Position numbers: made by a program. A stretch of 27,192 nucleotides of DNA from a virus. Its lineage: Duplodnaviria > Heunggongvirae > Uroviricota > Caudoviricetes. The DNA is taken from the IMG/VR virus record IMGVR_UViG_2874920711_000004, positions 1-27,192 of that record; one strand, written 5' to 3'. The stretch's first letter is position 1; every line of letters begins with the position of its first letter. This document shows, one piece after another, positions 7,301 to 10,300 of this stretch.

Positions 7301-10300
7301 ATACTGAAAATACCCTTAAGTTTGCGGCTTTATTACAGGTTCCTGCGGAAGAAATTAATCCAGATCTGAGTGATTTGTTACGCAGTATTCGTACCCACAC
7401 ACCGGGAAACAGGCGTAACCTGTTCGAGAAATATTACGAATATCCGTTACTCTCCTGCGTACAGGCTGGAGCTTTCTCAATGGATGATTTTTCGTACACC
7501 GCAAAGGATGCGATTAAGTGGATCTCCACCACCACAAAAGCCAGTGACAGGTCGTTCTGGCTGGAGGTCAAGGGGCATTCAATGACCGCGCCGCAGGGTG
7601 GTAAACCCAGTTTCCCGAAGGGATGCTGATACTCGTTGACCCTGAGCGGGAGATTGAGGATGGCGATTTTTGCGTGGCCCGAATGAATGGCGATGAATTC
7701 ACCTTCAAACGATTCATTCGTGAGAGCGGTAAAGCGTACCTGGAGCCACTCAACCCACGATTCGACATGATTGAGTGTAACGAAAACTGCCAGTTTGTCG
7801 GAAAGGTCATAAAGTCGCAGTGGAATGATGAGACTTTTGATTGAACTCACAGGATGATATCAATAACCTTGCAGGGAGGCTATTTTATTTCCTTTTTCAG
7901 CGAAAAATCTCCGAGAACCCTCGCCCAATGCGGGCGGGAGCAGTCGCAATCAAGTGAGCCATAAATGAACAAAGACAAATCCTTGACACAACAAGTGGAA
8001 GAAATACTTAGCAAGCAAAAAGTTAGCGAGCAAGGAAAAATGATTCAATCATTAAAGAACATGGGCTTGATCAACAAGCCTGTTTTTACTTTGGCTTATG
8101 GACCAGATATTACAACCTGCCAAATGCACCAATAACAAAACCCGGCCTTGGTGCCGGGTTTTGTTTGCCTCCTGCTCGCCCACCATTTACCAGTGCGCCA
8201 TAAATTCCCCATTCTTCGGCGGTGAGGATGTCAAAGACGAAGGGAACATTAAGCCCCTGTGTGATGGTTGACTTCTTTTTCCAGCGCCTTATTAACAAAG
8301 GCGTTCAGTGATAAATCTTCTTCCATCGCCATTTCAGCGACCCGACGATGCAGTTCTGGATCAAGTCTGACGTTAAACACACCTTTAAACGGGGTATCAG
8401 GCTCCTTTCCATCCTCCACACAAGACTGTAAATACAGCTCAACCGATGTCTTAAACTCCTGTTCCAGTTCAGCTAATGTAGAAGCCTCATAAGTTACCAG
8501 GTCTCGAATAAACGCCAGTTTTCCGTACAGGATATTATTTTCAAAATCTGGTTCTACTGTACCTAAATATCCTTTATATTTTAGATGATTCATAATACCC
8601 CAGCCTCTTTCAGATTCTGTTTAATCGCTTTCAGCGTTCCACCTTTAATATAACTTTCTGGATGTGGGCGATGCATTAATATGGTGTGGTTGATTTCAGC
8701 ATTGAAAAACCGCACTCTTGAGCCCTGCATTTCCTTTTTGACATATCCCAGAGAGGAAAACAAAACGACCAACTCATCCCATTCAAACGTTTTTTTACTG
8801 TTTAAAAACTTTTCCAGTAGCTTATCTGCTTTCCCCATACCCACATAATCTCATCTTCGCTACATTGCAACTAATTATAGTTACAGGCGATGTTTTTGTC
8901 AAAAGCCACCAAGCCCGCTGGGTTCTCTTTGACTGTTCACTGCTTTTCTTAGTGTTATCAGGGGTTCCCTCACACCAAATCTAACACAGAGTAACCGGCC
9001 TCAGCGCCGGTTTTTCTTTGCGCATCCTCCATAACTCACCACCTGCATTATCCTCGCTTATATTTTTTACATAAATAAATTAATCTAAAAATCAATCACA
9101 TAGATTAAAATTAAATTATTTGTCTTACTATTAACTGTGATCAGTTGCGCTTATTATATTTTACCCAAGCCAGAAACATCGCGCCCTGACACAGGGCTAC
9201 ATAAATCAGTCGTACGGCGCGACTTAACCCGCCGCAAAATGCTCTTTAACAATCTGGAGCTTTACAGCGTCAATGACCGGTTTAGACCCCTACACGTAAA
9301 CGTGCTGTATCATCGGGTGCGATCCGGTCGATGAGAGAGTATCCCCGCGCGAGAGCGAGAACGGCGTGAGAACGGGCAACACTGGCAGGAAGTTGGCGCT
9401 GACCAATACAGGGAATGTTTTGGGGTGCAGGCGGCACCGCCAAAGCATTTCCGAGAAAGGACGATATTGACTGCGTGTGATGTCGGGGCTATATTTGGCG
9501 AACACCTCATAAAACGGGTGCCGGGATTAGCACCCCGAAAGTTACTCGAGCGCATAACCGCGCTGAAGCGGTTTTTTTATGCGTAATGCACAGCCACATT
9601 CAAATTATGGTGAGGCGTGCGGGGCAGCCGCAAGGCTGGCCGGGTTCTCGAGTGACCGGTAGTGCTAACCCTGTGCGTCTCACCACCCATGAGATTAGCA
9701 CCTCTGGTGGTGAGTTAATTAACTTATCACTTGAGGATGTCATTATGGCTACTACCCTTTCTCACCCTGACGTAACCATCGAAAATGGTCGCGCCGTCAC
9801 TACTTCTATTTCGATTGCTGAGTTTTTTGGCAAGCAGCATCACCATGTTGTTCAGAAAATAGAATCCCTCGAATGCTCTGAGCAATTCTTAACCCGCAAC
9901 TTTTCGCGGGTTAAATTCGAACACCGAGGCAATACCTATAACGCCTACCAAATCACCAAAAACGGCTTCGTTTTTCTGGTGATGGGCTTCACCGGCAAAA
10001 AAGCAGCTGCATTCAAGGAAGCCTACATTGCTGAATTCGATCGCATGGAAAAACAACTATGGGAACAGAAACAACTGGCCCTGTCTTCTCCTGCGATGAA
10101 TATCAATTTCCCTTTATCGTGGTTTTCAGAGCATCACCCCTATGCCACGATGAACTATGTTGATAGAAATACATTGCAGCTTGATACCTCCGTCTTATTC
10201 GACATGCCAAGCCCTGCAATGCGCATATTTAATGAATTACGTCGTAACGGCTATAACGTCGATGCGGCTGTCGCCGAATTTAACGCCTTCAAGCATCTGA

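What the first reader, a model, noticed from the sequence alone, without database searches (positions are those of the whole stretch)
9119..9586. pL-nutL-N-like antitermination module; boxA identical to the rrn core, boxB-like hairpin upstream of it
Between hicAB and rha there is an AT-rich promoter-like stretch, a hairpin GCCCTGACACAGGGC with the lambda boxB stem, and 43 nt later TGCTCTTTAACAAT, the rrn/lambdoid boxA core. A frameshifted ORF follows whose second frame encodes an arginine-rich motif (ARERERRENGQHWQ) like the lambda N ARM, ending at a strong terminator. The boxB-before-boxA order is opposite to lambda nut sites, which may reflect a variant system or mean the hairpin has another role. 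The region has no convincing single long ORF and could be misread as non-coding.
Basis: partly seen in the sequence, partly recalled or inferred. Interest (0 to 1): 0.5.

Follow-up and report, generated by a model that had tools for sequence, protein, structure and literature searches.

The report
Unannotated boxA-linked leader RNA, no N
The supposed N-like antiterminator gene is really a conserved folded RNA sitting behind a perfect boxA at the start of a prophage's early-left operon, in the slot where related phages carry the HK022-type "put" antiterminator RNA, so it is a good candidate for a new RNA way of overriding transcription terminators.

Summary

There is no N-like gene. The "arginine-rich motif" (9347-9388) has a stop five codons upstream and no start codon. 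It lies inside a ~137-nt multi-helix RNA (9265-9401) that shows 98% pairing and 13 compensatory pairs across 23 diverse homologues. Rfam has no family for it.

The 3' end of the finding is a separate, known module: its own promoter, the IsrK sRNA (9502-9578) with the reported terminator, then a C4-type antisense RNA (9603-9690) and rha.

The boxA plus RNA cassette recurs in more than 130 prophage loci. These include phi80, HK225, the O104:H4 Stx2a phage P13374, and 224 of 5426 complete E. coli genomes. It always lies just downstream of pL and upstream of unrelated genes.

In other phages the same 5' leader, the same 3' flank and even identical downstream genes surround a put antiterminator RNA instead. 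I infer, without experimental support, that this is a boxA (Nus-factor) dependent, N-independent antitermination RNA that lets pL transcripts pass the IsrK terminator. Confidence is about 0.55.

The parts
9131..9160 (+). pL-like sigma-70 promoter (-35 TTAACT, 18 nt, -10 TATATT); transcription start inferred near 9166-9168
   Evidence: Promoter scan. In relatives, homology of the leader begins just after the -10 element, while the promoter and operator DNA upstream differs by immunity type. A 21-nt repeat shared with the cro/cI intergenic region (9114-9134 against 7093-7113, 81%) is weak evidence for a shared operator.
9183..9197 (+).
   Evidence: Unique in the window and predicted in the MFE fold. 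It is conserved only in the Stx-phage-type leaders, where the sixth base is G in 7 loci and U in about 23. It is absent from phi80-type leaders.
9208..9229 (+). Remnant of put stem I (AGUCG-UACGGCG-CGACU-UAACC)
   Evidence: Matches the first 22 nt of HK639 putL-like RNA (AGTCGAACGGCGCGACAGTAAACC) and of HK022 putL (AGACGAACGGCGCGTCTTTAAACC), with a compensatory stem change. The rest of put is missing.
9240..9252 (+). boxA (UGCUCUUUAACAA), identical to the rrn boxA core
   Evidence: Only exact match in the window and fits GYTCTTTAANA. 134 of the 137 related loci have a recognisable boxA-like motif 69-75 nt upstream of the conserved P2 core; of the other three, two loci are cut short before that position and one carries a variant the pattern missed.
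9265..9401 (+). Conserved structured RNA. Closing helices: P0a 9267-9272/9394-9399, P0b 9278-9282/9384-9388, P0c about 9288-9290/9374-9376. They enclose P1 9293-9296/9301-9304, the invariant P2 9310-9334, and P3 9342-9369 with an inner GAGA hairpin.
   Evidence: RNAalifold on 23 diverse sequences gives 33 pairs, 13 of them compensatory. 98% of cells are paired, against 32-43% when partners are slid, and 0/500 shuffles reach the observed values. Covariance model R1 scores 194.9 bits on the window. No Rfam match even at E<=10. The window copy has a private T-to-G change at 9279 that breaks one P0b pair.
9411..9452 (+). Long imperfect hairpin between the structured RNA and the isrK promoter; role unknown
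   Evidence: MFE -28.1 kcal/mol, z = -5.8. Its flanks (GGAATGTTTTGGGGTG and CGCCAAAGCATT) are shared with phi80-type and put-type leaders.
9467..9495 (+). isrK promoter (TTGACT, 17 nt, TATATT)
   Evidence: Promoter scan, 10 of 12 matches. It ends 6 nt before the Rfam isrK match. An isrK promoter was shown experimentally in Gifsy-1 (PMC4825925).
9502..9578 (+). IsrK-family sRNA with its intrinsic terminator (stem 9556-9573 plus U run)
   Evidence: Rfam RF01394, 61.6 bits against a gathering score of 50, full length. Terminator scan.
9603..9690 (+). C4-type antisense RNA (P1/P7 c4, P4 CI, STnc1160 class)
   Evidence: Rfam RF01695, 78.6 bits against a gathering score of 45, full length.
9745..10383 (+). 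rha/antirepressor-like gene, the first protein-coding gene of the operon
   Evidence: PF09669 at 2.3e-26; phrog_995 and anti-repressor PHROGs.

Best explanation
Window 9131-9401 is the promoter-proximal leader of the early-left (pL) operon of an N-less lambdoid prophage. Transcription starts near 9167.

The transcript runs through two small 5' hairpins, one of them a relic of put stem I. It then carries a consensus boxA (9240-9252), and 13 nt later a 137-nt RNA with four levels of helices (9265-9401). The apical hairpin P2 of this RNA is invariant in sequence.

I propose that boxA plus this RNA form one cis-acting processive antitermination signal, a functional equivalent of lambda nutL and HK022/HK639 putL:
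- NusB and NusE(S10) load on boxA.
- The folded RNA takes the part played by N-boxB (or by put), binding RNA polymerase or a host Nus factor.
- pL-initiated polymerase can then read through the IsrK terminator at 9556-9579, and through any Rho-dependent stops set by the C4-type antisense RNA, to express rha, kil, gam and recT after induction.
- Transcripts from the internal isrK promoter (9467-9495) lack the signal, so they mostly stop and yield the 77-nt IsrK sRNA.

Shown here: the elements, the RNA structure, its fixed link to boxA, its position, the cassette swap with put, and the absence of an N gene. Inferred: antitermination activity, Nus dependence, and the interplay with the IsrK terminator.
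For: 1. Exact boxA, unique in the window, matching the functional consensus.
2. A boxA-like motif lies at a fixed 69-75 nt from the RNA core in 134 of the 137 loci; two of the others are cut short and one has a variant motif.
3. The RNA structure has strong covariation support. P2 is invariant: three degenerate scans of IMG/VR found no variants.
4. Position is constant. The element lies downstream of cI, any morons and pL, and upstream of the early-left genes, in phi80 (between O-L and 'N'), HK225, KO-TP1, Edno5, P13374 and the E. coli prophages.
5. The first downstream gene is heterogeneous: Rha in 30 loci, phi80 'N' in 8, HK225 gp40 in 3, and many others. The element therefore goes with the promoter, not with a particular gene.
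6. Cassette swap. The same 45-nt 5' leader and the same 3' flank surround either put or boxA+RNA. HK639 annotates its cassette as 'putL-like antiterminator RNA'. HK225 gp40 (100% identical) and phi80 'N' (87%) also occur downstream of put cassettes. Hybrid joints inside put stem I occur in the window and in L127/L137.
7. No N-like protein was found in the window or in over 130 related loci.
8. An intrinsic terminator lies within about 650 nt downstream in the window, phi80 and HK225.
Against: - There are no experimental data for this RNA.
- The covariance model finds no second (pR-side) copy in the window or in related loci. HK639 is likewise annotated with only putL.
- The model does not detect HK022 or HK639 put, so the link to put rests on position and analogy, not homology.
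- Put works without Nus factors, so a boxA-linked RNA would need a different mechanism.
- Two members (Edno5, L036) also encode a P22-gp24-like N protein. The element may therefore cooperate with N rather than replace it.
- The commonest boxA variant (phi80 type, GCTTTTTAACA) departs from the strict consensus at position 4.
- The window copy has one broken pair in P0b and sits in a prophage with a damaged cI and an IS3 insertion, so this particular copy may no longer matter to its host.
- Two relevant papers could not be read: Ogawa 1988 on phi80 and King 2011 on HK639.
Confidence: 0.55

Rival explanations
1. One reading: a pL-nutL-N module in which a small arginine-rich N-like protein, encoded at about 9300-9586, binds the boxB-like hairpin and acts with boxA.
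For: The position is pL/nutL-like and the boxA is real. The hairpin stem GCCCU/AGGGC is identical to the lambda boxB stem. Two distant members of the family (Edno5, L036) do encode an N-like protein, phrog_271, two genes downstream.
Against: - The ARM frame has a TGA five codons upstream and no start codon before 9425.
- No Pfam or PHROG hit for 9137-9331 or 9335-9583.
- Frames are not conserved in homologues, and the same bases form covarying helices.
- tblastn with lambda N, P22 gp24, Nun and Edno5 gp49 finds nothing in the window.
- The hairpin loop is GACAC or UACAC, lies 5' of boxA, and is missing from most family members.
- 9502-9578 is IsrK.
Confidence: 0.03
2. The structured RNA is a leader element with another job: an RNase III/E/P processing or stability determinant, a Rho-blocking or translation-control element, a ligand-sensing riboswitch-like domain, or the precursor of a trans-acting sRNA or anti-defence decoy. 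On this view boxA acts on its own or is incidental.
For: - A multi-helix junction with invariant unpaired bases and loops is typical of ligand- or protein-binding RNAs.
- No pR-side copy exists.
- It co-exists with an N-like protein in Edno5 and L036.
- Lambda's own N leader contains an RNase III structure after nutL (established knowledge).
- Early-left operons often carry host-takeover functions.
Against: - What follows the element is variable, so there is no conserved expression platform, RBS or gene to control.
- The linkage and spacing to boxA are fixed.
- It is exchanged as a cassette with a known antiterminator RNA between identical flanks.
Confidence: 0.3
3. The element is the nutL of a phi80-type antiterminator protein (the 98-aa 'N' of phi80 or another unrecognised phage protein), and in this window it is an orphan left behind by recombination.
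For: In phi80 the element lies between O-L and the gene annotated N. The window prophage looks degraded: cI carries two 1-nt deletions and an IS3 sits in recT.
Against: - phi80 'N' homologues occur in only 8 of 137 element loci.
- One also occurs downstream of a put cassette. As far as I recall, put needs no phage protein.
- phi80 'N' has no arginine-rich N-terminus and falls in a PHROG of unknown function.
- The element stays intact, with compensatory changes, in over 120 loci that lack that gene, including inducible Stx phages.
Confidence: 0.08

Closest known systems
HK022 putL/putR and HK639 putL-like antiterminator RNAs
   Same: Both are cis-acting structured RNAs placed just downstream of pL in lambdoid phages without a lambda-type N gene. 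They occupy exactly the same slot: identical 5' leader, identical 3' flank and the same downstream genes flank either cassette. The window even keeps the first 22 nt of put stem I (9208-9229).
   Different: There is no detectable sequence or covariance-model similarity beyond that remnant. This RNA is about 137 nt with nested closing helices and three inner hairpins, against about 70 nt and two stems for put. It is always preceded by a boxA, which put lacks. Put acts without Nus factors (PMC9378689).
Lambda/P22/phi21 nut sites (boxA-boxB) with N protein
   Same: Same genomic position (nutL), a genuine boxA, and terminators downstream that must be passed.
   Different: No boxB 3' of boxA, no N gene, and no matching site on the pR side of the window. 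The upstream hairpin shares only the lambda boxB stem.
rrn operon antitermination leader (boxB-boxA-boxC; NusA/B/E/G, SuhB, S4)
   Same: The boxA is identical to the rrn core, a hairpin precedes boxA as in rrn leaders, and no phage protein is apparent.
   Different: No GU-rich boxC follows (read directly). A large, phage-specific structured RNA follows instead. The context is a prophage early operon, not rRNA.
Gifsy-1 isrK-orf45-anrP locus and the P1/P7 c4-icd-ant and P4 seqA-CI immunity modules
   Same: Window 9467-10383 is this module: isrK promoter, IsrK sRNA with terminator, C4-type RNA, then a Rha/antirepressor gene (PMC4825925).
   Different: In Gifsy-1 the module lies downstream of antQ. 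Here it is embedded in the pL operon behind the boxA-RNA cassette, and the orf45 equivalent is in frame with rha.

Membership tests
Lambda-type nut site with N antiterminator | boxA sequence matching the consensus | tested here: met
   TGCTCTTTAACAA at 9240-9252, unique in the window; fits GYTCTTTAANA.
Lambda-type nut site with N antiterminator | boxB hairpin a few nucleotides 3' of boxA, with a GNRA-like (G...A closed) pentaloop | tested here: not met
   The only lambda-like hairpin is 42 nt 5' of boxA (9183-9197). Its loop is GACAC, or UACAC in most relatives. What follows boxA is a 137-nt multi-helix RNA.
Lambda-type nut site with N antiterminator | Cognate small arginine-rich N protein encoded in the same operon | tested here: not met
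   The ARM frame has no start and a stop lies upstream. No N family in Pfam or PHROGs for any ORF from 9137 to 11291. tblastn with four N/Nun seeds is negative in the window.
Lambda-type nut site with N antiterminator | Second site (nutR) in the pR operon | tested here: not met
   No boxA within 2 mismatches on the pR-transcribed strand of the window, and no second covariance-model hit. A few relatives do have boxA plus a hairpin after cro.
put antiterminator RNA (HK022/HK639) | Sequence and structure similarity to put (two stems, conserved AGNCG...CGNCU...AAACCAUGCGUCGG core) | tested here: not met
   Only the first 22 nt are present (9208-9229). Model R1 built on the new RNA finds nothing in HK022 or HK639. 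The put core pattern is absent from the window. A put-based covariance model was not built.
put antiterminator RNA (HK022/HK639) | Location immediately downstream of pL in a phage lacking N | tested here: met
   Same leader and flanks as put cassettes.
put antiterminator RNA (HK022/HK639) | Terminator readthrough in cis, blocked by RNA polymerase beta' zinc-binding-domain mutations, independent of Nus factors | not testable with these tools
   Needs reporter assays in rpoC and nus mutant hosts.
rrn-type antitermination leader | boxA identical or near-identical to UGCUCUUUAACAA | tested here: met
   Exact match.
rrn-type antitermination leader | GU-rich boxC shortly after boxA, upstream of rRNA genes | tested here: not met
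   The sequence after boxA is UCUGGAGCUUUACAGCGUCAAUGACC, with no UGUGUGGG-like element (read). The context is a prophage operon.
IsrK sRNA (Rfam RF01394) | Covariance-model score above the gathering threshold, own promoter, intrinsic terminator | tested here: met
   61.6 bits against 50, full length 9502-9578. Promoter 9467-9495 and terminator 9556-9573.
C4 antisense RNA (Rfam RF01695) | Covariance-model score above the gathering threshold, upstream of an antirepressor-type gene | tested here: met
   78.6 bits against 45 at 9603-9690. The rha/antirepressor-like gene follows.

The most novel reading that the evidence does not exclude
A third class of lambdoid early antitermination signal: a structured RNA that, together with a consensus boxA and host Nus factors, does the job of the N protein. 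It would be an RNA N-substitute, mechanistically distinct from Nus-independent put. It would be used by phi80, HK225 and clinically important Stx2a phages, including the O104:H4 outbreak phage, and here it would decide whether pL transcripts pass the IsrK terminator.
Probability: 0.35. Interest if true: 0.85.

Novelty: new variant of a known kind. Interest (0 to 1): 0.68.

Why it matters
How lambdoid phages without N, including phi80 and many Shiga-toxin phages, get their early-left operon past terminators is only understood for HK022-type put RNAs. This analysis defines a second, unannotated and widespread RNA cassette in the same slot, with clear boundaries, a supported secondary structure, an invariant hairpin to mutate and a linked boxA.

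That makes the question directly testable. If the cassette is active, it would show host Nus factors being recruited by RNA alone outside rRNA operons. It would also bear on induction of Stx prophages, since rha/antirepressor, kil, gam and the recombination genes lie behind it.

There is a practical point for annotation as well. The region is left blank, or given spurious ORFs and over-long Rha proteins, in public records.

Tried and rejected
- **Rfam, permissive search on 9100-9520 (E<=10):** nothing found.
- **N-like protein:** rejected by translation, Pfam, PHROGs and tblastn.
- **Second, nutR-like copy:** the covariance model found none in the window or in 55 loci. The weak 14-15-bit hits were boxA-only sites after cro in a few phages.
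- **Homology to put:** the model is negative on HK022 and HK639. Only a 22-nt remnant is shared.
- **More divergent members:** three degenerate IMG/VR scans that allowed changes in the P2 stem or loop found nothing. A GTDB species-representative scan gave only 9 loci, from Enterobacter, Kluyvera and Escherichia. The family therefore appears confined to Enterobacteriaceae phages, plus Edwardsiella phage Edno5.
- **P13374 ORF26, annotated 'antitermination':** it is an ORF6N/antirepressor protein.
- **Direct swap of put upstream of the isrK-C4-rha module:** no blastn hit in 123 put loci. The swap was seen instead with HK225 gp40 and phi80 'N'.
- **Literature:** six searches, including exact sequence strings, found no description of this RNA. 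King et al. 2011 (PMC3187212) and Rotman et al. 2012 (PMC3510586) are not held, and Ogawa et al. 1988 was not available. Prior description there cannot be excluded.
- **Single-sequence folding of the window copy:** it gives an alternative inner pairing and a weak z-score of -0.87. I rejected that pairing in favour of the covariation-supported P1.
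Full report
**Context.** The window carries a lambdoid prophage immunity region.
- A cro-like gene lies at 6782-7021 on the minus strand. A LexA-family cI-like repressor lies at 7127-7844 on the plus strand.
- hicBA follows as a moron at 8249-8844 on the minus strand. A 900-nt stretch without convincing genes comes next.
- After that come rha (9745-10383), kil, a gene of unknown function, gam, and a recT cut by IS3.
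- Closely related E. coli prophages and phages show the same order: cro, cI, a variable moron (an R-M system, a Panacea-domain protein or hicAB), the unannotated leader, rha or ant, kil, gam, recT and exo.

**Checking the observation.**
- The promoter-like site is at 9131-9160.
- The hairpin is at 9183-9197, with 0.06 expected by chance.
- The exact 13-mer TGCTCTTTAACAA at 9240-9252 is the only exact match in the window.
- The terminator-like site is at 9556-9573.
- The boxA fits the experimentally derived consensus GYTCTTTAANA (PMC5725501).
- The "frameshifted ORF" is not real. The frame reading ARERERRENGQHWQ (9347-9388) opens directly after a TGA at 9332-9334, and its first possible start is the GTG at 9425.
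- The window aligns to relatives across this stretch without indels.

**The 3' third is a known RNA module.** An Rfam scan at gathering thresholds finds two RNAs.
- isrK (RF01394) lies at 9502-9578 with 61.6 bits. It is preceded by TTGACT-17-TATATT at 9467-9495, and it ends in the reported terminator.
- A C4 antisense RNA (RF01695) lies at 9603-9690 with 78.6 bits.
- This is the arrangement studied in Gifsy-1. There, transcripts from the isrK promoter either stop to give IsrK or read through into orf45-anrP. A C4/CI-like species, STnc1160, is processed from the readthrough RNA (PMC4825925).
- The terminator at 9556-9579 therefore belongs to an sRNA, not to an N gene.

**The "ARM" lies in a conserved structured RNA.**
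- blastn against phage records shows that window 9240-9427, starting exactly at boxA, is 93% identical to the phi80 early region. In phi80 it lies between the annotated O-L region and the gene called N.
- The same block occurs in HK225, in Klebsiella phage KO-TP1 and, at 78% identity, in Edwardsiella phage Edno5.
- A pattern scan of IMG/VR and of GTDB species representatives brought the total to 137 loci.
- A MAFFT alignment of 23 diverse copies, folded with RNAalifold, gives 33 base pairs in six helices. Three nested closing helices (P0a-c) enclose hairpins P1, P2 and P3.
- On that alignment, which was not fitted to the structure, 98% of cells form standard pairs. The figure is 32-43% when partners are slid by 1-3 columns. 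Thirteen pairs show changes on both sides, and none of 500 shuffles reaches the observed values.
- In contrast, all three reading frames are interrupted by stops, and shifted by 1-nt and non-triplet indels, in the divergent members.
- The two candidate ORFs have no N-family hit in Pfam or PHROGs.
- Rfam holds nothing similar even at E<=10.
- A covariance model built from the alignment scores 194.9 bits on the window (9226-9408) and finds one copy per locus.
- P2 (UAUCAYCGGGYGCGAUCCGGUCGRUGAGA) is essentially invariant. Scans that allowed stem or loop changes found no further variants in IMG/VR.
- The window copy differs from all relatives by a T-to-G change at 9279 that breaks one P0b pair.

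**boxA belongs to the element.**
- 134 of the 137 loci have a recognisable boxA-like motif 69-75 nt upstream of the P2 core. Two of the other three are cut short before that position, and one carries a variant the pattern missed.
- The forms are TGCTTTTTAACAA (75 loci), TGCTCTTTAACAA (32), CGCTCTTTAACAA (9) and a few minor variants.
- The window has the perfect rrn form. The phi80 type departs from the strict consensus at position 4.

**The element goes with the promoter, not with a gene.**
- In phi80-type leaders, sequence conservation begins at about +1 (CAUCGAAACGAAACAUCG...). The promoter and operator DNA just upstream differs between immunity types. The same holds for the window and P13374.
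- The first gene downstream is Rha in 30 loci, the phi80 "N" family in 8, HK225 gp40 in 3, and a range of unrelated small genes in the rest.
- tblastn with lambda N, P22 gp24, HK022 Nun and Edno5 gp49 finds an N-like protein only in Edno5 and L036 (phrog_271), two genes downstream. It finds none in the window.
- phi80 "N" has no arginine-rich N-terminus and falls in a PHROG of unknown function.

**Cassette swap with put.** This is the main functional argument.
- HK639 is annotated with a "putL-like antiterminator RNA" about 75 nt downstream of its putative pL. Its leader begins with the same 45 nt as phi80-type leaders.
- A scan for the put core found at least 120 IMG/VR loci. Most share that same 5' leader.
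- Many also share the same 3' flank as phi80: GGAATGTTTTGGGGTGTGGTG ... CCAAAGCATTTCTCCCGCATCAGCGGGTAACGACAGAGGGTAAGG-ATG.
- Between these identical flanks lies either put (about 70 nt plus a spacer) or boxA plus the 137-nt RNA.
- The downstream genes are shared too. HK225 gp40 occurs at 100% identity after put cassettes, and a phi80 "N" homologue at 87%.
- Hybrid joints exist inside put stem I. Window 9208-9229 is the first 22 nt of put, with a compensatory stem change relative to HK022. L127 and L137 carry a different joint.
- In the mosaic logic of lambdoid genomes, such allelic replacement between conserved flanks argues for equivalent function. It is an argument from position, not from homology, because the covariance model does not detect put.

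**Need for antitermination.** An intrinsic terminator lies downstream of the element and upstream of the kil/gam/recombination genes in all three cases examined.
- Window: 9556-9573.
- phi80: just after "N".
- HK225: at 3821-3838 of its locus.

**Proposed mechanism.**
- pL fires when the repressor is lost.
- NusB-NusE bind boxA on the nascent RNA.
- The adjacent folded RNA stabilises a termination-resistant complex by contacting RNA polymerase or a Nus factor. This takes the role that N-boxB plays in lambda and that put plays, without Nus factors, in HK022.
- The modified polymerase passes the IsrK terminator and any Rho-dependent stops linked to C4-type antisense control, and expresses rha, kil, gam and recT.
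- Polymerases starting at the internal isrK promoter never transcribe the signal, so they terminate and make IsrK.
- The structural and comparative steps are shown. The activity, the Nus dependence and the promoter-specific fate at the IsrK terminator are inferred.
- I put this at about 0.55. A different leader function (processing, stability, sensing, or a trans-acting RNA) gets about 0.30. An orphan nutL for an unrecognised phage protein gets about 0.08.

**Distribution and novelty.**
- The element is present, and unannotated, in 224 of 5426 complete E. coli genomes. These include O157:H7 and O111/O145/O103 strains, and laboratory strains that carry phi80 remnants.
- It is also in 108 phage records, among them the O104:H4 outbreak phage P13374, phi191, PA2, VT2phi_272 and ArgO145.
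- No paper in the searchable library mentions it or prints its core sequences. Three potentially relevant papers could not be read.
- I class it as a new variant of a known kind: a promoter-proximal antitermination leader RNA. The original N-protein reading is not supported.

Noticed in passing
window 7127-7844: The cI-like LexA-family repressor is split into three ORFs by two single-base deletions, compared with the intact 239-aa homologue in E. coli strain 48. One is in a G run near 7262 and the other at CCC(T) near 7619. It is either a pseudogene in a decaying prophage or a pair of homopolymer sequencing errors.
   Followed up: partly
window 11668-12486 (minus strand): An IS3-family transposase ORF interrupts the recT-like gene that begins at about 11209, another sign that this prophage is defective.
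   Followed up: no
window 9586-10383: The long ORF (265 aa) runs in frame from an ATG at 9586 through the C4-type RNA into rha, whose likely start is the ATG at 9745. RefSeq annotates such long 'Rha family' proteins in relatives (for example L001 4696-5469). The extension corresponds in position to Gifsy-1 orf45 and may be a mis-called start.
   Followed up: partly
window 18087-18170 (+): Full-length Rfam hit to sRNA-Xcc1 (RF02221, 78.1 bits) at the very start of ORF 18085-18867. It resembles C4 in ending with CCACCC and may mark a second antisense-RNA-controlled gene.
   Followed up: no
window 8874-8902 (minus strand): A perfect consensus sigma-70 promoter (TTGACA, 17 nt, TATAAT; 12 of 12) lies upstream of hicA.
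   Followed up: no
window 8993-9012: A bidirectional terminator-like hairpin lies just upstream of the pL-like promoter. It probably insulates pL from upstream plus-strand transcription. It is shared with relatives that carry different morons (the homology starts at 8933).
   Followed up: no
window 9411-9452: A very stable hairpin (-28.1 kcal/mol, z = -5.8) lies between the structured RNA and the isrK promoter. It has no U run, so it is not a terminator. It could be a processing site.
   Followed up: partly
L036 ~6908, L065 ~5070, L070 ~3462, L083 ~5511, L100 ~2380 (strand opposite to the element): Some phages with the element have a nutR-like site just after cro: an exact boxA GCTCTTTAACAA followed 7-18 nt later by a hairpin (for example GGCUGA-GUAA-UCAGCC). 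The bases after boxA (TCTGGA) match those after the window's boxA.
   Followed up: partly
L007 3187-3507 (Edwardsiella phage Edno5 gp49) and L036 9160-9381: A P22-gp24-like N protein (phrog_271), with the motif MNSRQRRAMRYRA, co-exists with the boxA-RNA element in these two phages. N-like and Nun genes likewise occur downstream of put cassettes.
   Followed up: partly
L004 2983-3000 (phi80) and L005 2983-3000 (HK225): In phi80-type leaders, the hairpin GGCGGACAGCAAGUCGCC directly abuts the U-rich boxA variant UGCUUUUUAA, and the scan scores it as terminator-like. It could be a pause or attenuation site at boxA.
   Followed up: no
L006 4994-5668 (phage P13374 ORF26): The record annotates this ORF as 'antitermination', but it is an ORF6N/antirepressor-family protein by Pfam and PHROGs.
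   Followed up: yes
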